Shown here in pieces: positions 918 to 32,570 of a DNA stretch of 44,931 bases. The position numbers and the translations under genes are program-made. Origin of the DNA: Escherichia phage vB_EcoP_D; the sequence record KY295893.1. One strand, written 5' to 3'. The notes under the pieces were generated by a model. That model did not search any database. It saw only the letters and a list, made by a program, of their open reading frames with translations, and had not been told where the DNA came from. Positions within the stretch are counted from its first letter, which is position 1; each line of letters begins with the position of its first letter.

Positions 918-2467
918 TACGCCTCCTTAAGTTCTTGTTGAATTACACCCGGAATGGCCTTAGCCACACCCTCTTCAAGCATCTGTGCTTGCTGTGCTTG
1001 CATCTGCGCTTCCTGTTCTTGCTCCATCTCTTCAGTCGATTTAAGGAATGGCAGTTCAGCAGAGATTTGACCACGTACCCAATCCATGTAATCAGGCCAC
1101 TTCACAGCAGCTAGGACAGGCTCAGGCCATTGCAAAGGCAGTGACATGTACTGAGCGAAGTTTGCCAGCTTATCCAGTTCAGCCATGCGCCCTAATGCTT
1201 CAATGCCTGTGATAATCACAGGGTCAACTAGGTCACTAGTGAATGAATCACCTGCCTCCAGCAGACCCCACATCGCTACTGGCGATTGCATAGTAGTAGC
1301 AAAGAGGGAATATACACCGCCCATGTTCTGCTCAATCTCTAACGCATCTCGCTGGATTTCTACAGCAGTAACACGTTCGGCATCACGGCGTGTCATCGTC
1401 TCCATCATGAATACGACACCGATACGGCGAGTGTACACCTCTAGAACCGCACTAATAGGTGTGAGGTCTGCATACTTACCTAACTGTACAATATGGATGT
1501 CTTCTTCTACACCAGTAACAACCTCACCAGTGCCAGAGTTAACAAAGTGGTCAACATCAGTCTGAGCACCCGGACGAATCAAGTACTTAATATCTGCCAT
1601 CAGTGCAGCACCACGGGCAACTGCTTCAGACAGGAATTGGATAACGAATAAATCACCGGAGTAATCCTCTGCTAAAGGACGACCCCAATCCTCACCATAG
1701 CTTCGCTTCCAAGTTAGCGGGATAAATGGTAGCTTTTCTGATTTGATTTTACTTACCTTACCAACAGGGATATCATCAGCAGATTGCTTGAGTTCCCAAA
1801 AACCCTCACCAAGATACTTAGCATGTGTGTACAGCTTAATGCTGTCATCTTCCTTGCATTTCTTACCTTTCAAGCCCACCTCTACCACAGCACGGGTAGC
1901 GGGGTCAAATGTACGCAAGGACTTTTCTTGCAGTAAGATAATGTCTAACAGGTCGCCATTGGTATCACGGTTAACTACGTAGTGATGCATTGGTATTGCA
2001 CTGATTGCACCTTTGCTCGGCTTGTATAGCATACAGCTGCCAGCAACAATAAGATGCTTGAATGCTTCTACTACAGCAGGCCGGAATTGACGTTGCTCTA
2101 ACTCTTTCATTGCCCGTGTTTCCACTTGAGCAAAGATAGTAGCTAGCTCTGTCTTCTTCAGGCCACGCTGATTAAGAATCTTCTCACCTTGTGCAGTTAG
2201 GTCTACACGGAAGAAGGAGCGCTGTGCAGGGAATAGCACTTGCGCTAGCTTGTTGGCTAGGTGGTTAGTTGCCTGAGCACCTACACCTTGCCATCCGTTC
2301 TGCGAAGTCTCGTTATCACCTTTGTCATTCATCAGATAGGGCAAGGTTAATTTGGAGTAATGCTTCGCCCTATCAAGGAAAGAGCTACGTTTAGTGGAGA
2401 ACTTCTCCCATAGCTTAGGTATCTTAGACCGCTTACCTCCATACTCCAAATCTGTGCTCTGTTTCAT
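917..2467 (-). CDS. portal (head-to-tail connector) protein
   Basis: 516-aa ORF, size and position match T7 gp8-like portals; RBS AAGGTG before ATG; followed directly by the scaffold gene. Confidence 0.85.
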   Translation of the reverse strand: MKQSTDLEYGGKRSKIPKLWEKFSTKRSSFLDRAKHYSKLTLPYLMNDKGDNETSQNGWQGVGAQATNHLANKLAQVLFPAQRSFFRVDLTAQGEKILNQRGLKKTELATIFAQVETRAMKELEQRQFRPAVVEAFKHLIVAGSCMLYKPSKGAISAIPMHHYVVNRDTNGDLLDIILLQEKSLRTFDPATRAVVEVGLKGKKCKEDDSIKLYTHAKYLGEGFWELKQSADDIPVGKVSKIKSEKLPFIPLTWKRSYGEDWGRPLAEDYSGDLFVIQFLSEAVARGAALMADIKYLIRPGAQTDVDHFVNSGTGEVVTGVEEDIHIVQLGKYADLTPISAVLEVYTRRIGVVFMMETMTRRDAERVTAVEIQRDALEIEQNMGGVYSLFATTMQSPVAMWGLLEAGDSFTSDLVDPVIITGIEALGRMAELDKLANFAQYMSLPLQWPEPVLAAVKWPDYMDWVRGQISAELPFLKSTEEMEQEQEAQMQAQQAQMLEEGVAKAIPGVIQQELKEA

Positions 2468-10640: not shown

Positions 10641-10922
10641 CATGTTAGACTAAATAAGTAGGAATAAGTTATTCATAAAGGCCACTCGTAAGTGACCTTG
10701 AGTATAACTCAGTCGTAGTTACCATCACAATCTGGGTCAATGCCAGAGAAAGCCCAGAATACTACCATAAATAATATGACTCCAAGAATAATAAAAGATG
10801 CCTGCATCAATCGTAACCCTCCTCTTCATCAGGTATATCTAATCGCATACTTCCATAGCAAGCAAGCATAAGGAATATAAGAAAGAAAGTGGAGAATAGG
10901 CAAACAATATCAAACCTGTCCA

Positions 10923-13469
10923 TCAGTGTGTTTCCTTCCAACTTGCACCAATCTTATACTCACCTGCCATCGGACAACGCATCTTCAGGTACTGACCCGC
11001 CCAAGTCATTGCGTCGGCAATGATATGCCCTGCACGGTGATAGCGACGCTGGCAATGAAGTACACCAGCATCAGCATCAACGCTAACGAGATTTGCAGCA
11101 GACCACATACGTCCTTCAGAATCCACATGAACACGTTTCTCCTCTGCATCGAACACTGCTTTCACAGCAGCCTTCTCTGTTTCGAACCCTTCTAAGGTGA
11201 AAGGCAAGTCGTAGTTGAGATACAAGACCTCATCTTCAGGGACTTCCATCTGGATTTCATCGTGCACGTTAGCTATACCGCAAGGGTTTCCCATGCTATC
11301 TAAGGCCACACCTTCCTTGCGCATCACTGCAAACGCCCTGACCAATGCGTATTTCATACACAGAGAACCAGTCATCTGGAGTAGTACGTTAAGCATAGTG
11401 TGCTCTTTAAGTTCACCACCAGACATACGGATGCGACCCCAATGACCATCAGGTGCTTGTAGGTAGCCAAACTTGTTACCTTGTGCGATAACATTCTCAC
11501 GAAGACGTGCAAGAGATGGTAGTTCAACCTCAAATCTTGCCACAACTTCCTCCATTTCTTCCTCAGTAACACCACATACTGCTGCAAGGTTAGCTATACC
11601 AGACCCATATAGGAAGGCATATATAAATGTCTTCGCCATGTCACGCTTAGGAAGACCAGCCTTCATTTGATTATGGGTGTGAATGTCACCATGCAGTACA
11701 ATATCTTGATATTCAGGGTCATTCATGAAGTGAGACAGTACACGTAGTTCAAGACCAGCACCATCACAACCAAGGATTAGCTTACCTTTACCGGCTATGA
11801 ATAAATCACGTAAAGGATACAAACCACGGGCAGGAATATTAACCACGTTACGATGACGCATACGGAACGTAGAAGTTCCAATACTAATAGCAATAGCTGG
11901 CACACGCCATTCTCCGTCATCCTTGTCTGACGTAGGCCAGCATCCGTACCTTTCGTAGTATTGCTGCGCATTGATTCCTAACTCCTTGTTAAATGCTACA
12001 GGTACAAGGCCGCGACACTTTCGTATACCAGCTTGCGAAGGCCACACCCCCTTCTGGTCGAAGGCTTCAACGTCACCACGGTTGAGGATCTGACCACGAC
12101 GGGATACGAGTATGTACCATGCAGCGATACCCAAGCACCAATCAGGGACTGTTTTACCTTCACGTGCGGCTCTCTCTTGCCATAAAGTAAGGGACTTTTC
12201 ATTTATCTTCCCACTCCAAGGCTTGGGTAATACGCCATGCTCATCGAGATGCGCTTGCTCGGTATCGTTAAATTCAACACCTTTCCATCCATAATCATAG
12301 AGCACTTGCTTAACTGTATCCCTGTTACCCAAGGGAATCTCTTCGAAAGTAACAGGCGAGTAAGCGCCAATCCACTTGATGCTTGGCGTGTCATTACGGT
12401 TTCCTCTAAGGTGAGGAAAGTCTTTCTTGACGCTAGCCGACCAATCACCAGACTTAGTAGTGACACTCCATACTGTCTTGCGATCTCCTCGTCTCTCGGC
12501 ATGAAGAAAGTGTGAGGGGTCAAGGACAGTAGGTATATTGTTGCTAGCTCCATACTCATTTGCGCGTTGGCATACTTCATTCTTTTCTTCCGGTTTAAAA
12601 GGTTTAGACTTGATACGCATAGGCATGTGCGGACGGAACGCTGCGACTGTCTCATCAATCTTAGCGTCCAATTCCTCGCATCGTGCTAATGCTTTATCTA
12701 TATCCAGACGGAATCCACGCTCGGCCTGACGGCTCATCTCCAGCGCCACAATGGACTCCATGTGGAAGGCTGTCTCAATACCTAGGCCAGTGCGTTTATT
12801 CACGCCACGGCGTTTGTGCTCCGTCCATTCTCCGTTAAATAGCCAGAGGAATAGGTCACGGCCTATCGCCACGTCCTCGCGTACACGATGTACCATGTGG
12901 TCAGTTAGTTTAGACCAATCCTCGTTCTCCGGCTTATAACGGCCTATACGAATGCCGTGCGCCTCAATTGAGTGAGGGGCTACGTTACCCATGCCTTTGG
13001 CGTATGCTTGCGGAGGGAGGCGTCTATCGGGGTTTAACAGGCGACTCATGACCAGCGTATCCATGACGCGTACCGGACACAGGTCAGCGCGGAGTCTGCC
13101 CTTGCCGCGTCTCTCGGTATAGTTAAAGCCTTTCCAGATATCAGGGAATGCTTTCTCAAATAGAAGGCCGTCGTACCCTAGGAAGTTCTGTGAGACGATG
13201 GCTTCGCAGTGCTTAAGGAAGTTAACACCGTCAACCAATGTTCCATCTTGATGGCCTTCCCATTCTTTTAGGCGTTCTCTTGCTTCAGGGTCACGCATCT
13301 CGTATGGGTCAAAGAAGAGGAACTCCTCTGTAGTAAGCAAATCCATGCAGCAAATGATGTGCACATCTTCGCGGTGGCCATATCGGATAGCATCCAGCAG
13401 GCCTTTAGCCTCAGAATCCATCACTAAGATGCGGCCTTCTGCTTCCTTCTTCCAATCAATTGATTTCAT
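10923..13469 (-). CDS. DNA polymerase, family A (T7 gene 5-like)
   Basis: 848-aa ORF from ATG 13469 (MKSIDWKK, RBS GGAG); track start 13502 is TTG. Size and polymerase-domain composition fit a T7-type DNA polymerase with proofreading domain. Confidence 0.9.
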   Translation of the reverse strand: MKSIDWKKEAEGRILVMDSEAKGLLDAIRYGHREDVHIICCMDLLTTEEFLFFDPYEMRDPEARERLKEWEGHQDGTLVDGVNFLKHCEAIVSQNFLGYDGLLFEKAFPDIWKGFNYTERRGKGRLRADLCPVRVMDTLVMSRLLNPDRRLPPQAYAKGMGNVAPHSIEAHGIRIGRYKPENEDWSKLTDHMVHRVREDVAIGRDLFLWLFNGEWTEHKRRGVNKRTGLGIETAFHMESIVALEMSRQAERGFRLDIDKALARCEELDAKIDETVAAFRPHMPMRIKSKPFKPEEKNEVCQRANEYGASNNIPTVLDPSHFLHAERRGDRKTVWSVTTKSGDWSASVKKDFPHLRGNRNDTPSIKWIGAYSPVTFEEIPLGNRDTVKQVLYDYGWKGVEFNDTEQAHLDEHGVLPKPWSGKINEKSLTLWQERAAREGKTVPDWCLGIAAWYILVSRRGQILNRGDVEAFDQKGVWPSQAGIRKCRGLVPVAFNKELGINAQQYYERYGCWPTSDKDDGEWRVPAIAISIGTSTFRMRHRNVVNIPARGLYPLRDLFIAGKGKLILGCDGAGLELRVLSHFMNDPEYQDIVLHGDIHTHNQMKAGLPKRDMAKTFIYAFLYGSGIANLAAVCGVTEEEMEEVVARFEVELPSLARLRENVIAQGNKFGYLQAPDGHWGRIRMSGGELKEHTMLNVLLQMTGSLCMKYALVRAFAVMRKEGVALDSMGNPCGIANVHDEIQMEVPEDEVLYLNYDLPFTLEGFETEKAAVKAVFDAEEKRVHVDSEGRMWSAANLVSVDADAGVLHCQRRYHRAGHIIADAMTWAGQYLKMRCPMAGEYKIGASWKETH

Positions 13470-27675: not shown

Positions 27676-27754
27676 ATACTCTCCTATTACTTCCCAACCC
27701 TCCCTATGAAGATTGGCTAGTAATAGGCCGCTCAAAAGAACGGCACTATCTTAT

Positions 27755-27777
27755 CTCTTCTATAGTGTCAGTAAATC
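27755..27777 (-). promoter_or_regulatory. phage RNAP promoter upstream of the tailspike module (GATTTACTGACACTATAGAAGAG)
   Basis: -10 to +6 (TGACACTATAGAAGAG) identical to the SP6 consensus; upstream part shifted relative to the main class; +1 G at 27760. Confidence 0.6.
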
Positions 27778-27805
27778 GTAAGACACTGATACATAAAACT
27801 ATGTA

Positions 27806-28003
27806 TTAATTATACCCGTGTTCTAGCGAGAGAATGTACATACCTAATTTTGTAGCGTCAGGTTTACTGAAGCAGACTTTATCGTCCACCTCGTAGACTG
27901 CCGTAAGCGTCGGCTTCAGAGGCTTCACCTTTGGATTCTCTGGTAACGCCGTCTGACACCCTGAAGTGATCAGCGAACCAATCAGCAGGATTGTCGCTAG
28001 CAT
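27806..28003 (-). CDS. candidate outer-membrane spanin (Rz1-like lipoprotein)
   Basis: 65 aa from ATG 28003 (RBS GAGG): MLATILLIGSLITSGC followed by Pro-rich QTALPENPKVKPLKP; lipobox is imperfect; embedded in another frame of the ORF below. Confidence 0.4.
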   Translation of the reverse strand: MLATILLIGSLITSGCQTALPENPKVKPLKPTLTAVYEVDDKVCFSKPDATKLGMYILSLEHGYN

Positions 28004-28100
28004 GATTCGCCTCACTTTGTGCCTCCTTCTCTTCCTTCTTCTTCTTAGCGGCAAGCAGCAGGCCAATAAGACCTGCTACCACCTCTAGCACCTTATTCAC
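27879..28100 (-). CDS. candidate inner-membrane spanin-like protein (GTG start, no RBS)
   Basis: 73-aa ORF with N-terminal TM-like VLEVVAGLIGLLLAA then charged region; starts at GTG overlapping the upstream stop; short for an Rz. Confidence 0.3.
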   Translation of the reverse strand: MNKVLEVVAGLIGLLLAAKKKKEEKEAQSEANHASDNPADWFADHFRVSDGVTRESKGEASEADAYGSLRGGR

Positions 28101-28242
28101 AGGTGATTACTTGGCATACCACGTCAGTGACGGAACCTTCAGTACCTTCACCTAGGTCTACGCCAAGACCTACAGAAACAAGAGCAATCACCAGTGCAAC
28201 CAGTGCACCTACCACTTTCTTAGACTTAAACAGCTTTTTCAT
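28093..28242 (-). CDS. hypothetical small membrane protein (49 aa)
   Basis: MKKLFKSKKVVGALVALVIALVSVGLGVDLGEGTEGSVTDVVCQVITCE, RBS GGGAG; single TM; below track cutoff. Could be a holin or antiholin. Confidence 0.35.
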   Translation of the reverse strand: MKKLFKSKKVVGALVALVIALVSVGLGVDLGEGTEGSVTDVVCQVITCE

Positions 28243-28350
28243 TACATCTCCCTTTCCATTGAGCTAATAAGTCCGAGTAGTTCTTCCAGTCATCATAGTT
28301 GCCATCCTCGGCAGCTTGAGCAACCATGCGCTCGCACCATTCAATACATC

Positions 28351-28695
28351 TTACCATCGTGCACATCCCTCTCTTACATCAATGTGGGTGAAATTAGGAT
28401 AAGACCCAATGCCATATTTATTGGGGTAGCGTGCTGTTAGATAGGACCATACACGGTAAGGTGTAATACCTTGTACCTTAATGTCAGCAGCCTTACCAGT
28501 AAGATGCATGGAGTTCTTAGCACCTCCCACATTAGCATTGTGCTTAGCACAGCGGTGTCCAGAAGTAATAACTACAGGAGCACCAAAGTGCTCACGTACA
28601 TCTGTGACTACCTGTAGTAACTCAGCATCTACTGTGGATGTACCGCACCCACAACGGCAAGCGAACTCACGGCGCTTGAAGTGTTTGTTAAGCAT
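28351..28695 (-). CDS. endolysin, peptidase M15 family (L-alanyl-D-glutamate peptidase-like)
   Basis: 114 aa from ATG 28695 (MLNKHF, RBS GAGG); SGHRC...D...H zinc-peptidase signature (VVITSGHRCAKHN, HLTGKAADI, FTHIDV); track start 28764 is GTG. Confidence 0.75.
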   Translation of the reverse strand: MLNKHFKRREFACRCGCGTSTVDAELLQVVTDVREHFGAPVVITSGHRCAKHNANVGGAKNSMHLTGKAADIKVQGITPYRVWSYLTARYPNKYGIGSYPNFTHIDVREGCARW

Positions 28696-28715
28696 TATTG
28701 ACCTCGTCTTTACAA

Positions 28716-29003
28716 TTAAGCCGCAGGTGTTACAGGGTCCGACTCCATAGTAGTTGCATCCCACTTGTCGGTGGGTTCACTCCCACGTGCAATAGCGATG
28801 TACAAGGATTGGTTTGTTTTCTCTACAGCAACCATGGCGCCTTTCTGTTTACCAGAGAGGTGTTTAATGTTGATAGGATGATCTTTCTTCTTAAGGTCTG
28901 CTTCAGCAACAATAGGCAAAGGGATTGCCGTTGCAGTGGTTTGTCCAGTTTTTACTCGAAAAGCCTGACCAGTAACAGTACCTGCGGTTCCATATTTAGA
29001 CAT
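28716..29003 (-). CDS. hypothetical protein, paralog of 29016..29294
   Basis: 95-aa ORF, RBS AGGAGAG; shares SGKQKGAMV...IAIA block with the adjacent gene. Confidence 0.5.
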   Translation of the reverse strand: MSKYGTAGTVTGQAFRVKTGQTTATAIPLPIVAEADLKKKDHPINIKHLSGKQKGAMVAVEKTNQSLYIAIARGSEPTDKWDATTMESDPVTPAA

Positions 29004-29015
29004 GTAACTCTCCTC

Positions 29016-29294
29016 TTAAGCTGGGTAAATAGTAGTGACCGCTTTATTAGCTGTCAACCAATTGGAATCTTCTTTGCCATCAACTGCGATAGCAATAACC
29101 AGGTTATCATGTGTATCAAGACACACCATGGCCCCTTTCTGCTTACCTGATTTGGTGGCATCATTAATAACATCACCTTTCTTCTCAACAGTGTCCTCGT
29201 AAACTACAGGAAGCATCAGGGCTTCACTCACAGGTTGTATCTGCTTACGAGCAGACTTACCTGTAAGGGGTTGTGTACTATAACTATTAGACAT
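29016..29294 (-). CDS. hypothetical protein, paralog of 28716..29003
   Basis: 92 aa from ATG 29294 (MSNSYSTQ, RBS AGGAGAGAGA); track start 29354 is GTG. Confidence 0.5.
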   Translation of the reverse strand: MSNSYSTQPLTGKSARKQIQPVSEALMLPVVYEDTVEKKGDVINDATKSGKQKGAMVCLDTHDNLVIAIAVDGKEDSNWLTANKAVTTIYPA

Positions 29295-29427: not shown

Positions 29428-29450
29428 TCCTTCTATAGTGTCCGGTAATT
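29428..29450 (-). promoter_or_regulatory. phage RNAP promoter, main subclass (AATTACCGGACACTATAGAAGGA)
   Basis: +1 G at 29433; overlaps the terminase stop codon; upstream of the paralog pair and lysis genes. Confidence 0.55.
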
Positions 29451-30180
29451 AATAAGTCCTTGAAATCCTTGCAGAAAGTGTATTTCTGCTTGCCGATTTA
29501 CTCCTGTAATTCTGACCGTATACTCTTTGCTGCATAGCCACGGAAGTGTTGGTTACTCTTCGCTCAGTGCCATAATCTCCATAGAGCATTGCCCTACGGA
29601 GGTGAGGTGTGTTCATAGCTTGGATATAATCGCGCATCTCCTGCGCTCTGAGGCGATTAATCCGTGTAACCTCGTCATAGTCTATCTGAGAAGTTAATTG
29701 CCGTATAGCGCCATACAGCGCGTCTAAGCGGTCATCGTGCCGGAGGCTGTTCTTCTCAATCGTGATGTTCGACATTTGATTGAAAAGGCTGTATGACATG
29801 CGTAGTTCAAGCGGATAGTGCTGTACCGACTCAAAATCAGACTTGACCATCTCTGCGTTGAAGATGAGCCTGTGGGCCGCCATTAGTGGCTCTAGTGTTT
29901 CAATGATACGCAACTCTTTCTGTCCGGTGGCGTAATCTTCCTCCAGAGTCACAGGCCACTCTCGTTCAAAGTATGGCTTTATAACGGCCTCAAACGCGCC
30001 ATGACCAAAGTTCTTTTCAATGAATACCTCTTTAACACCTGCCTGCTTTGCGGCCTGCACAATGCGATTCAGGGACGATTCGCGGTATCCTCCCGGCACA
30101 CCAAAGCACTGATACACATAAATGAATGTGCCGTGCAGGAAGACGATAGCCACACCCGTTTCATCCCCATTCTTACCTCC
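29449..30180 (-). CDS. terminase large subunit, exon 2 (nuclease domain)
   Basis: Encodes GGKNGDETGVAIVFLHG... and a downstream HDDRLDAL acidic motif; in frame with exon 1 after removal of 30181..30926; spliced product ~633 aa. Confidence 0.75.
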   Translation of the reverse strand, partial: GGKNGDETGVAIVFLHGTFIYVYQCFGVPGGYRESSLNRIVQAAKQAGVKEVFIEKNFGHGAFEAVIKPYFEREWPVTLEEDYATGQKELRIIETLEPLMAAHRLIFNAEMVKSDFESVQHYPLELRMSYSLFNQMSNITIEKNSLRHDDRLDALYGAIRQLTSQIDYDEVTRINRLRAQEMRDYIQAMNTPHLRRAMLYGDYGTERRVTNTSVAMQQRVYGQNYRSKSASRNTLSARISRTY

Positions 30181-30706
30181 CGGTTTGAACGTGACGTGCG
30201 AGCCAACCCTTGTGGTGTTTACGTAAACCATGTGCCACCTTACGCATATTCTGAGGTGTTAGGTTGTGCTCTTTACAGAAGTCAGTAATGCAAGTTACAA
30301 GAAACTCTTCACCATCTGGAGAAGTGAATATGTAATCTTTGCCAGTACCTTTGTTGTAAGGTGTCATGCCTTTCTTGAACTCAGTGGCAACAGACAAGTG
30401 CTGTCCTTTCTTGATTTCAGTGGCAATACTTATGCGTTCACCTTTCTCGATGTTACCTGCTTTGCGATAACCACCTTTACCCTTATTCCAACCCATGTTG
30501 TCATGTGGGCGTAGCTTCTCTTCTAGTGCATAACACTCTTCTTTGCTACCAGTGAATAAGATAACGTACTCGCGGCCATCACAAAGACGGCCTGCACACT
30601 TGTGCTCTCTCATACGCTTCTTAATATCGGAGGTTACACCAATATAACCTTGCATTACATCAGTTTCACCAACAACACGAATATGATAAACTTTATGCTC
30701 TGTCAT
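30173..30706 (-). CDS. GIY-YIG homing endonuclease, intron-encoded
   Basis: 177 aa, RBS AAGGGAG; N-terminal KVYHIRVVGETDVMQGYIGVTSDIKKRMREH fits the GIY...YIG...R...E pattern, followed by repeated basic GxxxxxxxIATExKKG segments; stop codon lies 6-8 nt past the predicted 3' splice site. Confidence 0.85.
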   Translation of the reverse strand: MTEHKVYHIRVVGETDVMQGYIGVTSDIKKRMREHKCAGRLCDGREYVILFTGSKEECYALEEKLRPHDNMGWNKGKGGYRKAGNIEKGERISIATEIKKGQHLSVATEFKKGMTPYNKGTGKDYIFTSPDGEEFLVTCITDFCKEHNLTPQNMRKVAHGLRKHHKGWLARHVQTGR

Positions 30707-30926
30707 ATTTAACTCCCTTCAATTGTTACGTTAATTCGCTACTTTAACTTCTACTAGTCACCTAGTAGGTCGGACTATATCTTAGGCTTGCGCCTCCCTC
30801 TGTTTCAGACCGCTTGGCCTTACAGTTAGTCTCTACACGTTCCTGTTATTGCAACAGGCTTCGCTCGGTATTGTCTCAGTGAGAGTTCCACCGAATTAAG
30901 AGGGTTTTACGCTGGCAGAGGTGTTT
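30181..30926 (-). mobile_element. group I intron in the terminase large-subunit gene
   Basis: Intron RNA contains matches to the group I core elements: P-like AAUUCGGUGGAA (30886..30897), Q-like AAUACCGAGC (30863..30872), R-like GUGUAGAGACUAAC (30825..30838), S AAGAUAUAGUCCG (30771..30783). Predicted P1 pairs exon GCUGGU with GCCAGC (30911..30916) with a U.G at the splice site; predicted P10 pairs exon 2 GGAGGU with ACCUCU; last intron base is G. Confidence 0.75.
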
Positions 30927-32096
30927 ACCAGCGGGGTCAATGTACATAATTTTACGGGTGACAGCGCCCCATTCATACGGTCGGGCCACAGGGCGATACA
31001 TAAAGTCTGTAGGCTTATTGCCATACTTCGGTGCATCGCCAATGATGTTAATAGAGTCGTTGCTCCATGTAGGCATCACAGGGACTTCCTCTGTACCGAA
31101 TGAAGTGAAGATGAGGTTGTTCAGGCGTAGCGGATAGCGGTCAGCATCCATCATGCGAGTGTTAAGCATAAACTGAAGCTGGAACTTAGCCGCACCCTGC
31201 GAGATTTCCTTCTCAATCAGCACATCATCATCATACATTTCAGGTGCACAAGGGGCACCACTATTGCCATCCAAGCCATACCCTGAGCGAAGTGCTGGGT
31301 TGTCCTTCATATCCTGCACAATCATAGGTGCAAGGAAGTCGCCATAGCATTGCTCCTGCTCCACTGAGGGATAACGTGCAGTCCAGATACGAACAGAGTA
31401 ACCACGAGCAGGTAGGTTATTGTAGATAGAGTTTACGTTCTGAGGAGTACCAAGGTAGATAATATCACCAAACTGGTTAATAGATTCAAACTCCTTGGTC
31501 AGTTCCTCAAGCAAGGCACGTCCTGCCGCTGTACGAGCATTCTGCATTGACTCAACGTCATCTGCTAGGATGATATCTGCACGCGCACCCTGCATACCTG
31601 CTTCGATTGAGTAACAAGACACAGAAGGCGACTTGTCACTGCCACGTAGGGTGTAATGAATCTCAAATGCCTTAACTGAGGCACGGTCCCCTGCGTAGAT
31701 GTCCGGTAGCATAAACTCAAGAAAGTCTAGGCCACGGAAGATTTTAACTACCCAACCTGCGATTTCCTCTGCTCGCTTGGCGTTTTGGGATACAACCATG
31801 ATACGCTTATGCGGTTCATGAATGATACGGAATACTGTATAGATTGCTGATAGTGTTGTCTTAGCGATACCACGAGGCGCTTCGATGAGGCGATACTTGT
31901 GTCCGTAGAATAGGAACTTCAAGATATCAGCCTGCATACGAATCAGATGAGGGTTGCCTGCAATTAAGTTATGAATAACTGTGTCTGCAAAGAGAAGCAA
32001 ACCTTCCGCTGTGTAAGGAAAGGTCTGCTGTAACTCCTGTAGCATCTCCCATCTGGCAAGAGCCTCCGCTTGTGATTCTCTTGCCTTAGCCATCAA
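30927..32096 (-). CDS. terminase large subunit, exon 1 (ATPase domain)
   Basis: Encodes 390 aa up to ...KIMYIDPAG; track ORF continues 16 codons into the intron to a stop (...KHLCQRKTLLIRWNSH). ATG at 32093 follows an in-frame TTG at 32096. Confidence 0.8.
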
Positions 32097-32392
32097 TCCT
32101 CCTTAGTGAATTGAATAATCTTGCCACTTGATGCCTCTCGGATAGCCTTGAGGCGCTTAGATAGCTTGGACTCCTCCTGCTGTGCAGCGGGTGTAGCGGT
32201 AATACCATTATCAAGAACCCACTTACACATAGCTCCAATGTCTTTACCAGAGACTAAATGCAGTGCTGCATCTGGGTCTTCTTCTATAGTGTCCAGTATT
32301 GCCTGTGCTTTCTTATTAAAGATTTTGGTAATAGCACCATGTAGAATGCCAACCTCGTCTTCCGTAGCTGCATGTTTATTGTGTACGCTCAT
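32093..32392 (-). CDS. candidate terminase small subunit
   Basis: 99 aa from ATG 32392 (MSVHNKHA, strong RBS GGAGGAGGAG); assigned by position immediately upstream of the large subunit (T7 gene 18 position); no sequence motif recognised. Confidence 0.5.
   Translation of the reverse strand: MSVHNKHAATEDEVGILHGAITKIFNKKAQAILDTIEEDPDAALHLVSGKDIGAMCKWVLDNGITATPAAQQEESKLSKRLKAIREASSGKIIQFTKED
32279..32301 (-). promoter_or_regulatory. promoter-like sequence inside the small-terminase gene (CAATACTGGACACTATAGAAGAA)
   Basis: Core identical to main-class promoters, upstream AT-rich part weaker; +1 G at 32284. Confidence 0.4.
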
Positions 32393-32570
32393 GGCTCCTC
32401 CTCCATAGTTTAATCTTGGTATAAAACCAGTCTCCAATTTGCAACACGGTATAAATGAATGTTGCTATTAACACCCAATTATCCCAACTGATACCGAGGA
32501 AGTACCCACCTGATACTAATGCAGGTGGCGCCAGCTTCACACCACTATCTACCAGTTCGGAGTTAATCAT
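32376..32570 (-). CDS. candidate holin (T7 gene 17.5 position)
   Basis: 64-aa ORF with hydrophobic core WVLIATFIYTVLQIGDWFY and basic C-terminus KLWRRSHERTQ; sits between tail-fibre adaptor and terminase. Confidence 0.5.
   Translation of the reverse strand: MINSELVDSGVKLAPPALVSGGYFLGISWDNWVLIATFIYTVLQIGDWFYTKIKLWRRSHERTQ

What the first reader, a model, noticed from the sequence alone, without database searches (positions are those of the whole stretch)
27806..28695. Lysis cassette with M15 peptidase endolysin, a small membrane protein and overlapping spanin-like ORFs; holin candidate is elsewhere
Downstream of the terminase lie an M15-family peptidase endolysin, a 49-aa single-TM protein, and two overlapping ORFs in a purine-rich stretch: a TM-plus-charged 73-aa frame starting at GTG and an embedded 65-aa Pro-rich frame with an imperfect lipobox. 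The best holin candidate (32376..32570) is ~4 kb away next to the terminase, as in T7. The spanin assignment is weak because the inner-membrane candidate is short and lacks an ATG and RBS.
Basis: partly seen in the sequence, partly recalled or inferred. Interest (0 to 1): 0.45.

Follow-up and report, generated by a model that had tools for sequence, protein, structure and literature searches.

The report
K1E-type phage lysis cassette, hidden gene
This is the known late lysis cassette of a K1E-like coliphage, but the doubtful 73-codon GTG frame is a real, widely conserved gene that always overlaps the outer-membrane lipoprotein gene and lacks the membrane anchor expected of a classical inner-membrane spanin.

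Summary
The window is Escherichia phage vB_EcoP_C/R (Vectrevirus, K1E-like), with these genes on the minus strand.

Five translationally coupled genes fill 27806..28695:
- an M15_3 endolysin;
- A, a 49-aa membrane protein;
- B, the 73-aa GTG frame;
- C, a lipoprotein.

A T7-family holin sits at 32376..32570, next to the terminase genes.

Corrections:
- C starts at GTG 28015 (69 aa), not ATG 28003.
- C overlaps B and runs past its end; it is not embedded.

B is certainly coding:
- pN/pS is 0.30 in its frame, against 1.7 and 2.3 in the other two.
- It is open in every relative examined.
- A profile of it finds 71 clusters (at 50% identity) in metagenomes.
- In about 50 distinct loci it always overlaps a C-like lipoprotein gene in the +1 frame, inside lysis cassettes.

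B is not a canonical i-spanin. Its N-terminal helix is a short leucine-rich, often charged segment followed by a basic cluster, not a transmembrane domain. A is a truncated relative of two-TMD holin-like proteins.

Published annotations disagree: A is called holin or i-spanin, and B is usually ignored. How B reaches or cooperates with C is unresolved.

The parts
28351..28695 (-). Endolysin, 114 aa, Peptidase_M15_3. No signal or SAR sequence, so it depends on a holin.
   Evidence: Pfam PF08291, E 5.5e-33; phrog_894 endolysin, E 3e-45. RefSeq vB_EcoP_C gp15 / K1E gp43 'endolysin'.
28226..28357 (-). 43-aa soluble protein of unknown function (MVRCIEWCERMV...). It overlaps the endolysin stop (ATGGTAA) and the start of gene A.
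   Evidence: phrog_1312, E 2.3e-18. Annotated in RefSeq vB_EcoP_C but not in K1E. Conserved, with a W-C motif, in Pantoea, Pseudomonas, Aeromonas and Klebsiella relatives.
28093..28242 (-). A: 49-aa bitopic inner-membrane protein. It has a basic N-terminus (MKKLFKSKK), one TMD of 19 residues, and a 21-residue acidic periplasmic tail ending in C-x4-C-E. It is a truncated relative of two-TMD holin-like proteins. It has been annotated elsewhere either as holin or as i-spanin.
   Evidence: Summed Hessa dG -1.6 kcal/mol. phrog_4712 'holin', E 3.2e-27. hhalign against the two-TMD family: probability 90.7%, E 1.3e-6. The Vibrio ICP3 homologue (phrog_4712, E 7e-23) sits at the T7 18.5/18.7 position. 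Kongari 2018 supplement: 'i-spanin, too small?'.
27879..28100 (-). B: 73-aa protein with a GTG start coupled to the stop of A. In order it has a leucine-rich N-terminal helix (residues 4-18), KKKK, a charged helix, the invariant motif SDNPADWFADHFRV, and a variable disordered tail. It is not annotated in RefSeq for this phage or for K1E.
   Evidence: pN/pS 0.30 in this frame against 1.73 and 2.25 in the others. Open in 37 of 37 distinct relatives. phrog_9219, E 1.8e-35. 71 clusters in the profile search. AF2: helices 2-34 and 38-45, the rest disordered. Hydrophobicity analysis.
27806..28015 (-). C: 69-aa outer-membrane lipoprotein of o-spanin type, in the +1 frame of B. The signal peptide is MRRIMLATILLIGSLITSG|C. 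The mature part is 50 aa, with a Pro-rich linker, a conserved Cys and a conserved C-terminal helix KLGxYILxLExGY.
   Evidence: phrog_8971 'Rz-like spanin', E 3.6e-39. K1E gp45. Kongari 2018 o-spanin family K1-5/K1E/SP6/UAB_Phi78. Lipobox regex, K/R in the n-region, SD upstream and no Asp at +2 in 37 of 37. The only convincing lipoprotein candidate in the window.
28022..28027 (-). AGGAGG Shine-Dalgarno sequence for C, 6 nt upstream of GTG 28015. It lies inside the coding sequence of B.
   Evidence: Sequence read. An SD-like motif is present upstream of C in 37 of 37 relatives. The same RBS is listed in the Kongari supplement.
32376..32570 (-). T7-family holin (gp17.5-like), 64 aa, between a gene whose N-terminus matches the Pfam T7 tail fibre domain and the small terminase gene.
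   Evidence: Pfam PF10746 Phage_holin_2_2, E 5.5e-27 (cut-off 25.4 bits, score 93.7); phrog_920 holin. Neighbours identified.
27755..27776 (-). Sequence ATTTACTGACACTATAGAAGAG, which I recognise as an SP6/K1E-type phage promoter. It lies 30 nt downstream of the stop of C and marks the 3' boundary of the cassette.
   Evidence: Single match at up to 3 mismatches, 0 expected by chance. The identification as a promoter rests on my knowledge of the SP6 promoter consensus, not on a test here.

Best explanation
The region is the late lysis cassette of a K1E/SP6-type podophage. Five genes are packed with no intergenic space and are translationally coupled: endolysin, a 43-aa protein, A, B and C.

Proposed sequence of events:
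1. The T7-family holin at 32376..32570 opens the inner membrane.
2. The signal-less M15 peptidase escapes and cuts the peptidoglycan.
3. The outer membrane is then breached by the B/C module.

The components:
- C is an outer-membrane lipoprotein of the o-spanin kind.
- B is its obligate, co-inherited partner, encoded in the i-spanin slot with C in its +1 frame.
- B is a non-canonical inner component. It has no stable transmembrane anchor. It has a short leucine-rich amphipathic helix plus a basic cluster, which I take to be a membrane-binding element. It also has a conserved DNPxDWFxxHF motif, which I take to be the contact with the conserved C-terminal helix of C.
- A is a truncated holin-family membrane protein, always co-translated with B. 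It acts either as a second holin or antiholin, or as the membrane tether for B.

Shown here:
- the gene structures and the coding status of B;
- the lipoprotein signal of C;
- the family-wide B/C overlap inside lysis cassettes;
- the absence of a conserved TMD in B;
- the homology of A to two-TMD holin-like proteins.

Inferred, not shown:
- that B and C contact each other;
- the cell compartment of B;
- that the pair disrupts the outer membrane;
- the role of A.
For: Identity and annotation:
- The region is 100% identical to phage vB_EcoP_C/R and 98.8% identical to K1E.

Family matches:
- endolysin, Peptidase_M15_3, E 5.5e-33;
- T7-type holin, E 5.5e-27;
- C, phrog_8971 'Rz-like spanin'; B, phrog_9219; A, phrog_4712.

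B is coding:
- pN/pS is 0.30 in its frame against 1.73 and 2.25 in the others, over the 84 nt that overlap no other gene.
- pN/pS is 0.19 against 0.65 where B overlaps the signal peptide of C.
- Entropy peaks at B's third codon position.
- The GTG start is present in 23 of 23 loci.
(all)

B/C is a conserved pair:
- The same A-B-C triad occurs in Pantoea, Pseudomonas, Aeromonas, Proteus and Klebsiella phages, with ATG starts for B in some lineages.
- B-like and C-like genes overlap in Salicola phage CGphi29, which has no A-like gene.
- The profile search gives 71 clusters, nearly all of 58-95 aa.
- All 8 metagenome loci reached by protein look-up carry a +1-frame C-like lipoprotein ORF over B. 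So do all 12 B-like loci found by the motif scan.
- These loci lie beside Phage_lysozyme, Peptidase_M15_3, VanY or DUF5675 genes and holin genes.

C is a lipoprotein and the only one:
- 37 of 37 distinct C sequences pass the lipobox rules, and none has Asp at +2.
- C is the only credible lipoprotein in the genome.
- There is no room for an Rz/Rz1 pair between the terminase genes.

Others have called B homologues i-spanins:
- Kongari et al. 2018 list the B homologue of UAB_Phi78 as an overlapped i-spanin.
- The Nufs112 record labels it 'Rz-like protein'.
Against: - B fails the defining i-spanin feature. In the window the uncharged run is only 12 residues, and KKKK immediately follows it.
- Across 61 family representatives, the longest run free of D, E, K and R before the motif has a median of 9 residues. 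Only 3 of 61 have a run of 18 or more. Mean Eisenberg hydrophobicity is 0.47, against 0.80-0.85 for true TMDs, and the hydrophobic moment is 0.39.
- B has no signal peptide, so there is no evident route to the periplasm, where C resides.
- B's C-terminal tail varies from 61 to 73 aa and is predicted disordered. In Rz, by contrast, the C-terminus contacts Rz1.
- Pfam, NCBIfam and PDB searches find no similarity between B and any spanin family.
- The Young-lab catalogue and the LL11 genome announcement call A, not B, the i-spanin of K1E, K1-5, SP6 and LL11 ('separated pair').
- Vibrio phage ICP3 has an A-like gene plus a lipoprotein gene at the T7 Rz/Rz1 position, with no B.
- There is no experimental evidence for any of A, B or C.
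Confidence: 0.55

Rival explanations
1. This is a separated two-component spanin, as in SpaninDB. A (49 aa) is a minimal i-spanin and C is the o-spanin. B is an accessory or regulatory protein that happens to overlap C.
For: - A has the only unambiguous N-in/C-out TMD.
- A has a conserved periplasmic C-x4-C tail.
- The A homologue of Vibrio phage ICP3, together with a lipoprotein, occupies exactly the T7 18.5/18.7 slot, with no B.
- This is the call made by Kongari et al. 2018 and by the LL11 announcement.
Against: - The periplasmic part of A is only 21 residues. The curators themselves flagged the pair as 'too small' and 'too short' (71 residues in total).
- A is homologous to the first two thirds of two-TMD holin-like proteins.
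- A is replaced by unrelated small membrane proteins, or by none, in other B/C cassettes (Salicola, L065, L067, L074). B never is.
- The ICP3 lipoprotein is unrelated to C, yet the tail of A hardly changes. That argues against a specific A-C contact.
Confidence: 0.2
2. A and B form a holin-type or holin/antiholin pair. A supplies TMD1, and B supplies a second, weak helix plus a basic cytoplasmic cluster and a cytoplasmic domain. C works without a dedicated inner-membrane partner.
For: - A aligns to TMD1 plus the loop of two-TMD holin-like proteins, and lacks their TMD2 and basic C-terminus.
- B begins with a hydrophobic helix followed by KKKK, as the positive-inside rule would predict for an N-out/C-in segment.
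- B is always translationally coupled to the preceding small membrane protein.
- The PHROG label of A is 'holin'.
Against: - B keeps its own N-terminal helix even where the upstream protein is a complete two-TMD protein (L060, and the marine clade P0146/P0144).
- In many members the helix is too charged to span a membrane.
- This reading leaves the strict B/C co-occurrence unexplained.
- The phage already has a T7-family holin.
Confidence: 0.13
3. The 73-aa frame is a chance open frame over the start of the lipoprotein gene and is not expressed.
For: - It has a GTG start and no Shine-Dalgarno sequence.
- It is absent from the RefSeq annotation of K1E, vB_EcoP_C and Mt1B1_P10.
Against: - Purifying selection is specific to this frame.
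- The protein sequence is conserved down to about 25-30% identity in 71 clusters.
- Other lineages have ATG starts.
- The start is always coupled to the upstream stop.
Confidence: 0.02

Closest known systems
Two-component spanins of overlapped architecture (P2 LysB/LysC; lambda Rz/Rz1 for the principle)
   Same: - The pair is the last genes of a lysis cassette.
- The second gene starts inside the first, in the +1 frame, and runs beyond it.
- The second gene encodes a small Pro-rich outer-membrane lipoprotein with a periplasmic Cys.
- The first gene encodes a small, highly charged, largely helical protein.
   Different: - The first protein (B) has no conserved transmembrane domain.
- B carries a basic cluster directly after its N-terminal helix.
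- B is only 58-95 aa.
- Its conserved element is an internal aromatic-acidic motif, not the C-terminus.
- No sequence similarity to any Rz or LysB family was detectable.
SpaninDB entries K1-5/K1E/SP6 ('separated', i-spanin = gp44) and UAB_Phi78 ('overlapped', i-spanin = 69-aa frame) in Kongari et al. 2018 (PMC6139136)
   Same: These are the same genes. A is gp44, C is gp45, and B is the homologue of the UAB_Phi78 i-spanin.
   Different: - The catalogue treats orthologous cassettes in two incompatible ways.
- It did not record B in K1E, K1-5 or SP6.
- Here both candidates are shown to be conserved genes present together.
Vibrio phage ICP3/VP4 minimal pair at the T7 18.5/18.7 position
   Same: A 47-aa protein of the same PHROG family as A (basic N-terminus, TMD, GVDL, C-x4-C) is directly followed by a 65-aa lipoprotein.
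   Different: - There is no B-like frame.
- The lipoprotein is unrelated to C: it is acidic and has no second Cys.
Disruptin gp28 of phage phiKT (cationic amphipathic peptide that replaces spanins; bioRxiv 10.1101/515445)
   Same: - It is a small helical protein with no TMD or signal sequence, encoded in a podophage lysis cassette.
- The first 25 residues of B are an amphipathic helix plus a Lys cluster, with net charge +3.
   Different: - B as a whole is acidic (net charge -2).
- B is always paired with a lipoprotein gene.
- No sequence relationship was tested or claimed. I saw only the abstract of the phiKT paper, in a search listing.
T7 lysis gene layout (17.5 holin, 18, 18.5/18.7, 19)
   Same: The T7-family holin lies between the gene with the T7 tail fibre N-terminal domain and the small terminase gene.
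   Different: - The endolysin is an M15 peptidase at the right-hand end of the genome, not a gp3.5-type amidase.
- The spanin slot between the terminase genes is empty.
- The B/C module follows the endolysin.

Membership tests
o-spanin (Rz1-like outer-membrane lipoprotein): protein C | Signal peptidase II signal with a lipobox Cys | tested here: met
   MRRIMLATILLIGSLITSG|C fits a regex I wrote from my recollection of PROSITE PS51257 and its side rules. Cys is at position 20 and there is K/R in the first 7 residues. All 37 distinct relatives pass. LipoP and SignalP were not available.
o-spanin (Rz1-like outer-membrane lipoprotein): protein C | Sorted to the outer membrane (no Lol-avoidance Asp at +2) | tested here: met
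   The +2 residue is Q, A, S, G, V or T in 37 of 37 sequences, never D.
o-spanin (Rz1-like outer-membrane lipoprotein): protein C | Short mature periplasmic domain, Pro-rich, with a Cys for intermolecular disulfides | tested here: met
   The mature part is 50 aa, with 5 Pro in its linker region and Cys48 invariant in alignment A2. Two distant members instead carry a Cys in the linker.
o-spanin (Rz1-like outer-membrane lipoprotein): protein C | Encoded in a lysis cassette, overlapping or next to its partner gene | tested here: met
   True in the window and in every related locus examined.
o-spanin (Rz1-like outer-membrane lipoprotein): protein C | Required for outer-membrane disruption (spherical-cell arrest when absent); complements Rz1 mutants together with its partner | not testable with these tools
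   Needs phage genetics.
i-spanin (Rz-like): protein B | N-terminal transmembrane domain with N-in/C-out topology | tested here: not met
   In the window the uncharged run is 12 aa (15 counting E6) and is followed by KKKK. Across the family the median charge-free run is 9 aa, and 3 of 61 members reach 18 or more. Mean hydrophobicity is 0.47 against 0.80-0.85 for real TMDs. TMHMM and DeepTMHMM were not available, and the K1E-like subgroup is the most hydrophobic, so a weak anchor in this particular phage is not excluded.
i-spanin (Rz-like): protein B | Charged, mainly helical soluble domain | tested here: inconclusive
   AF2 predicts helices 2-34 and 38-45 and disorder for residues 46-73, with mean pLDDT 61. 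The domain is much shorter than typical Rz periplasmic domains.
i-spanin (Rz-like): protein B | The gene contains or overlaps the o-spanin gene | tested here: met
   C starts 85 nt into B, in the +1 frame, in 23 of 23 K1E/SP6-like loci. The offset is also 85 nt in the distant locus L060. Overlap is found in all loci examined.
i-spanin (Rz-like): protein B | Physical complex with the o-spanin across the periplasm | not testable with these tools
i-spanin (Rz-like): protein A | N-terminal TMD, N-in/C-out | tested here: met
   The TMD has 19 residues with summed Hessa dG -1.6. There are 5 Lys before it, and 4 acidic residues and no basic residue after it.
i-spanin (Rz-like): protein A | Periplasmic domain able, with the o-spanin, to span the periplasm | tested here: not met
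   A has only 21 periplasmic residues. These plus the 50 of C give 71, which the SpaninDB curators flagged as 'too small' and 'too short'. A is also homologous to two-TMD holin-like proteins.
T7-family holin (Pfam PF10746): 32376..32570 | Match to the family model above the gathering score, in the position of T7 gene 17.5 | tested here: met
   93.7 bits against a cut-off of 25.4. It lies between the gene with the T7 tail fibre N-terminal domain and the small terminase gene.
Peptidase_M15_3 endolysin: 28351..28695 | Match above the gathering score, with the Zn-ligand motifs H-x6-D and a C-terminal H | tested here: met
   113.8 bits against a cut-off of 23.2. SMHLTGKAAD and FTHID are visible in the translation. 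Reading these as the Zn-ligand motifs rests on established knowledge of the family.
Unimolecular spanin (T1 gp11-like): protein C | Lipoprotein signal plus a C-terminal TMD | tested here: not met
   The C-terminus ...KLGMYILSLEHGYN has no hydrophobic stretch long enough to span a membrane.

The most novel reading that the evidence does not exclude
B/C is a third kind of outer-membrane disruption system. B accumulates in the cytoplasm, like the endolysin, and reaches the periplasm only through holin lesions. There its DPxxWFxxHF motif docks onto the conserved C-terminal helix of the outer-membrane lipoprotein C. Its N-terminal segment, an amphipathic helix followed by a Lys/Arg cluster, then attacks a membrane. 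In effect it would be a lipoprotein-targeted disruptin, or a spanin whose inner arm is delivered by the holin. The small membrane protein always co-translated with B would be its chaperone or tether.
Probability: 0.2. Interest if true: 0.8.

Novelty: new variant of a known kind. Interest (0 to 1): 0.5.

Why it matters
Spanins are defined by an inner-membrane-anchored subunit and an outer-membrane lipoprotein. SP6-, K1E- and K1-5-type phages are widely used as therapeutic and capsule-depolymerase phages. They have sat uneasily in that scheme: their catalogued pair is flagged 'too small', and orthologous cassettes are annotated in three incompatible ways.

Three results here change the picture:
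- A conserved, mostly unannotated overlapping gene is the constant partner of the lipoprotein.
- The pair forms a large family in uncultivated phages.
- The partner has no conserved transmembrane anchor.

This gives a concrete, testable exception to the spanin model. It also explains why automated pipelines call either B or C but rarely both. Practically, it corrects the annotation (start of C, existence of B, nature of A) for more than 100 sequenced phages.

Tried and rejected
1. BLASTP of A against the ICP3 47-aa protein gave no alignment. The link was made instead through PHROG profiles.

2. A 95-aa 'A-B fusion' (P0104) at first looked like a canonical i-spanin, with a TMD followed by the B domain. 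It is a singleton. Its two halves are 100% identical to separate proteins of 64 aa (P0146, seen on 99 contigs) and 69 aa (P0144). It is therefore a deletion or assembly chimera, and I discarded it as evidence.

4. The search for related loci with the broad B alignment failed because no stretch was conserved enough. I replaced it with a degenerate DNA motif scan of viral contigs: 14 hits, 12 real.

5. The same motif scan in 185,579 species-representative bacterial genomes gave 37 hits, none of them B-like. No prophage copies were found with this strict motif.

6. tblastn of a distant B (L060) against cultured phages found nothing. tblastn of another (L065) hit only SP6-like phages.

7. Pfam, NCBIfam and PDB profile searches of A, B and C found nothing significant.

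8. The KBNP1315 lysis paper concerns a different endolysin and holin and was not informative.

9. The additive Hessa scale on 19-residue windows is crude. The argument against a TMD in B therefore rests mainly on the charged residues inside the helix across the family.

10. The +1 frame is not diagnostic by itself, because Kongari et al. report 116 cases in the -1 frame.
Full report
**Identity of the window.** The region 27740..28800 is 100% identical to Escherichia phages vB_EcoP_C and vB_EcoP_R and 98.8% identical to K1E (Vectrevirus, Autographiviridae). 112 phage records match at megablast level. All the genes discussed lie on the minus strand.

RefSeq annotates, in order: endolysin; a hypothetical protein (only in vB_EcoP_C); 'holin' (49 aa, K1E gp44); 'Rz-like spanin' (K1E gp45); a hypothetical protein; and the endosialidase tail spike. 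The 73-aa GTG frame is not annotated in either record, nor in Mt1B1_P10.

**The observation.**
- The endolysin, 28351..28695, is Peptidase_M15_3 (E 5.5e-33). It has no signal or SAR sequence.
- The 49-aa protein, 28093..28242 (A), has a basic N-terminus, a 19-residue TMD and a 21-residue acidic tail ending in C-x4-C-E.
- The 73-aa frame, 27879..28100 (B), starts at a GTG that overlaps the stop of A by 8 nt (TGTGAATAA). It cannot be extended, because its frame opens only two codons upstream.
- The lipoprotein frame (C) ends at 27806.
- The holin candidate, 32376..32570, is a T7-family holin (PF10746, 93.7 bits). It lies between a gene whose N-terminus matches the Pfam T7 tail fibre domain and the small terminase gene, as in T7.

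**Corrections to the observation.**
- C begins at GTG 28015, with AGGAGG 6 nt upstream. This gives MRRIMLATILLIGSLITSGC, a signal with the basic n-region that the 65-aa version lacks.
- The ATG at 28003 is GTG, ACG or TGG in three relatives, so it cannot be the conserved start.
- C runs 73 nt past the end of B, so the pair is overlapped, not embedded.
- A conserved 43-aa ORF, 28226..28357 (phrog_1312), bridges the endolysin and A.
- Five genes therefore occupy 890 nt with no intergenic space, each start overlapping or abutting the previous stop.

**Is B a gene?** Yes. I compared 21 distinct K1E/SP6-like sequences.

| Segment | B frame | Frame +1 (C's frame) | Frame +2 |
|---|---|---|---|
| 84 nt between the stop of A and the start of C, pN/pS | 0.30 | 1.73 | 2.25 |
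| Overlap with the signal peptide of C, pN/pS | 0.19 | 0.65 | 0.93 |

- Positional entropy in the 84-nt segment peaks at B's third codon position (0.72, against 0.37 and 0.14).
- Even in the overlap B's frame is the more constrained. This explains the unusual invariance of that signal peptide.
- The GTG start is present in 23 of 23 loci.
- The frame is open in all 37 distinct loci recovered from IMG/VR and GenBank.
- Orthologues in Pantoea phage Nufs112, in the L059 viral contig and in two Pseudomonas MR4-type viral contigs (L057, L058) start with ATG.

**How wide is the family?** A profile of B finds 71 clusters (at 50% identity) among 1.84 billion proteins. Nearly all are 58-95 aa. All 66 that I aligned match phrog_9219 (function unknown), and none matches any Pfam spanin family.

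Conserved features of the family, in order:
- a leucine-rich N-terminal helix;
- a basic cluster;
- E-A-Q-x-E-A-[DN];
- [DN]-P-x-x-W-F-x-x-H-F-x-G;
- a polar, disordered tail.

AlphaFold2 on the K1E-like alignment gives helices 2-34 and 38-45 and disorder beyond, with mean pLDDT 61.

**The B/C pair is the invariant unit.** A lipoprotein ORF homologous to C (lipobox, Pro-rich linker...LGxYIxxLExxY) overlaps B in the +1 frame in all 8 metagenomic loci reached through protein look-ups. The same holds for all 12 B-like loci found by a degenerate motif scan. The offset is 85 nt both in the window and in the distant locus L060.

These loci are lysis cassettes. They lie beside Phage_lysozyme, Peptidase_M15_3, VanY or DUF5675 genes and beside holin genes.

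All 37 distinct C sequences pass a lipobox regex written from my recollection of PROSITE PS51257, have K/R in the n-region and an SD upstream, and never have Asp at +2. C is the only convincing lipoprotein candidate in the whole window. The terminase genes abut, which leaves no T7-like 18.5/18.7 slot.

**Why B is not a canonical i-spanin.**
- The defining feature is an N-in/C-out TMD. In the window the uncharged run is 12 residues (15 counting E6), and KKKK follows it directly.
- In Proteus, Pseudomonas and Salicola orthologues, R, D, E or N sit inside the helix.
- Across 61 representatives, the longest run free of D, E, K and R before the motif has a median of 9 residues. Only 3 reach 18.
- The best 18-residue window has mean Eisenberg hydrophobicity 0.47 and hydrophobic moment 0.39. 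The TMD of A scores 0.85 and 0.14.
- The basic cluster after the helix is a family constant (K19 is invariant within the K1E/SP6-like alignments). By the positive-inside rule it would place the rest of B in the cytoplasm.
- The tail is dispensable in length, ranging from 61 to 73 aa.

A 95-aa protein that looked like a TMD fused to a B domain turned out to be a singleton chimera of two separate neighbouring genes. It was discarded.

**What A is.**
- A and the 47-aa protein of Vibrio phage ICP3 belong to the same PHROG family (E 7e-23). In ICP3 that protein, followed by an unrelated lipoprotein and with no B-like frame, sits between genes 18 and 19, exactly where T7 has Rz/Rz1. This supports the published view that A is a minimal i-spanin.
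- Against that view, profile-profile comparison aligns residues 1-42 of A with TMD1, the loop and the start of TMD2 of a family of two-TMD, basic-tailed, holin-like proteins (probability 90.7%, E 1.3e-6). Those proteins precede B/C in other cassettes.
- In further cassettes the gene before B is a different small membrane protein (phrog_9685 type), or there is none.

A is therefore a variable companion, and B/C is the constant.

**State of the literature.**
- Kongari et al. 2018 list K1-5, K1E and SP6 as 'separated' pairs (A + C), flagged 'too small?' and 'too short'. They list UAB_Phi78 as 'overlapped', with the B homologue as i-spanin.
- The LL11 announcement speaks of 'a separated spanin pair' and a class II holin.
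- RefSeq and PHROGs call A a holin.
- The Nufs112 record labels B 'Rz-like protein'.
- The Proteus PM 93 RefSeq record annotates B as 'membrane protein' and omits C.
- I found no experimental work on A, B or C.

**Most likely mechanism.**
1. The holin, of T7 type, opens the inner membrane.
2. The M15 endolysin degrades the peptidoglycan.
3. The B/C module breaches the outer membrane, with A either tethering B or modulating the holin.

The gene structures, the coding status of B, the lipoprotein signal, the co-occurrence and the lack of a TMD are shown here. The B-C contact, the compartment of B and the function of the pair are inferred.

The rivals are the separated A/C spanin with B as an accessory protein, and an A/B holin-type pair. 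The most novel reading still allowed is that B is a cytoplasmic, holin-released partner that docks on C and attacks a membrane with its N-terminus, an amphipathic helix followed by a basic cluster.

**Verdict.** The cassette itself is known and ordinary in outline. What goes beyond current annotation is the overlooked gene B, its family-wide pairing with the lipoprotein gene, and its failure to meet the i-spanin definition. Together these amount to a new variant of a known kind.

Noticed in passing
window 30751..30999 (-) and 30173..30706 (-): The large terminase gene is split into 30876..32096 and 29449..30231. The interruption is a group I intron (Rfam RF00028, 61 bits, E 3.5e-13) that carries a GIY-YIG/NUMOD homing endonuclease ORF. 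The split falls at the DPAG|GGKNGDETG junction, just before the RNaseH-like nuclease domain. K1E annotates the same layout as genes 40.5 and 40B.
   Followed up: partly
window 28226..28357 (-): A conserved 43-aa soluble protein (phrog_1312, W-C motif) is wedged between the endolysin and A and overlaps both. It is present in distant relatives with a different endolysin type and is absent from the K1E annotation. Its function is unknown; it may be a lysis regulator.
   Followed up: partly
window 28716..29003 (-) and 29016..29294 (-): Two paralogous genes of 92-95 aa upstream of the endolysin are labelled 'acetyl-CoA acetyltransferase' in RefSeq (phrog_2725). The gene at the same position in Klebsiella phage VLCpiA2a is labelled 'Hoc-like head decoration' (115 aa). 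The enzyme name looks implausible for proteins this small.
   Followed up: no
L029 (Vibrio phage ICP3) 1765..2105: An A-like 47-aa membrane protein, not annotated in the record, and an unrelated acidic 65-aa lipoprotein occupy the T7 18.5/18.7 slot with no B-like frame. It is unexplained how 21 + 49 periplasmic residues could act as a spanin.
   Followed up: partly
L026 (Proteus phage PM 93) 1416..1704, compared with L001 and L002: Overlap-averse gene callers annotate either B or C, rarely both. PM 93 RefSeq has B ('membrane protein') but not C. K1E and vB_EcoP_C RefSeq have C but not B.
   Followed up: yes
window 27755..27776 (-) and 27789..27806 (-): A sequence I recognise as an SP6/K1E-type promoter (ATTTACTGACACTATAGAAGAG) follows the stop of C. 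It is the only copy in the window within 3 mismatches. A weak 7-bp hairpin spans the stop codon of C; it appears in the minimum-free-energy fold but not in the centroid.
   Followed up: partly
window 10807..10923 (-): A 38-aa ORF on the coding strand, MDRFDIVCLFSTFFLIFLMLACYG..., has a lipobox-like LMLAC. It is probably a small membrane protein of the early or middle region. It turned up in the genome-wide lipobox scan.
   Followed up: no
L062 329..616: In a marine metagenome contig, a deletion fuses a two-TMD holin-like gene to the B-like gene in frame, giving a 95-aa product. Close relatives keep two separate genes (P0146, P0144). It may be a natural deletion variant or an assembly artefact.
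   Followed up: yes
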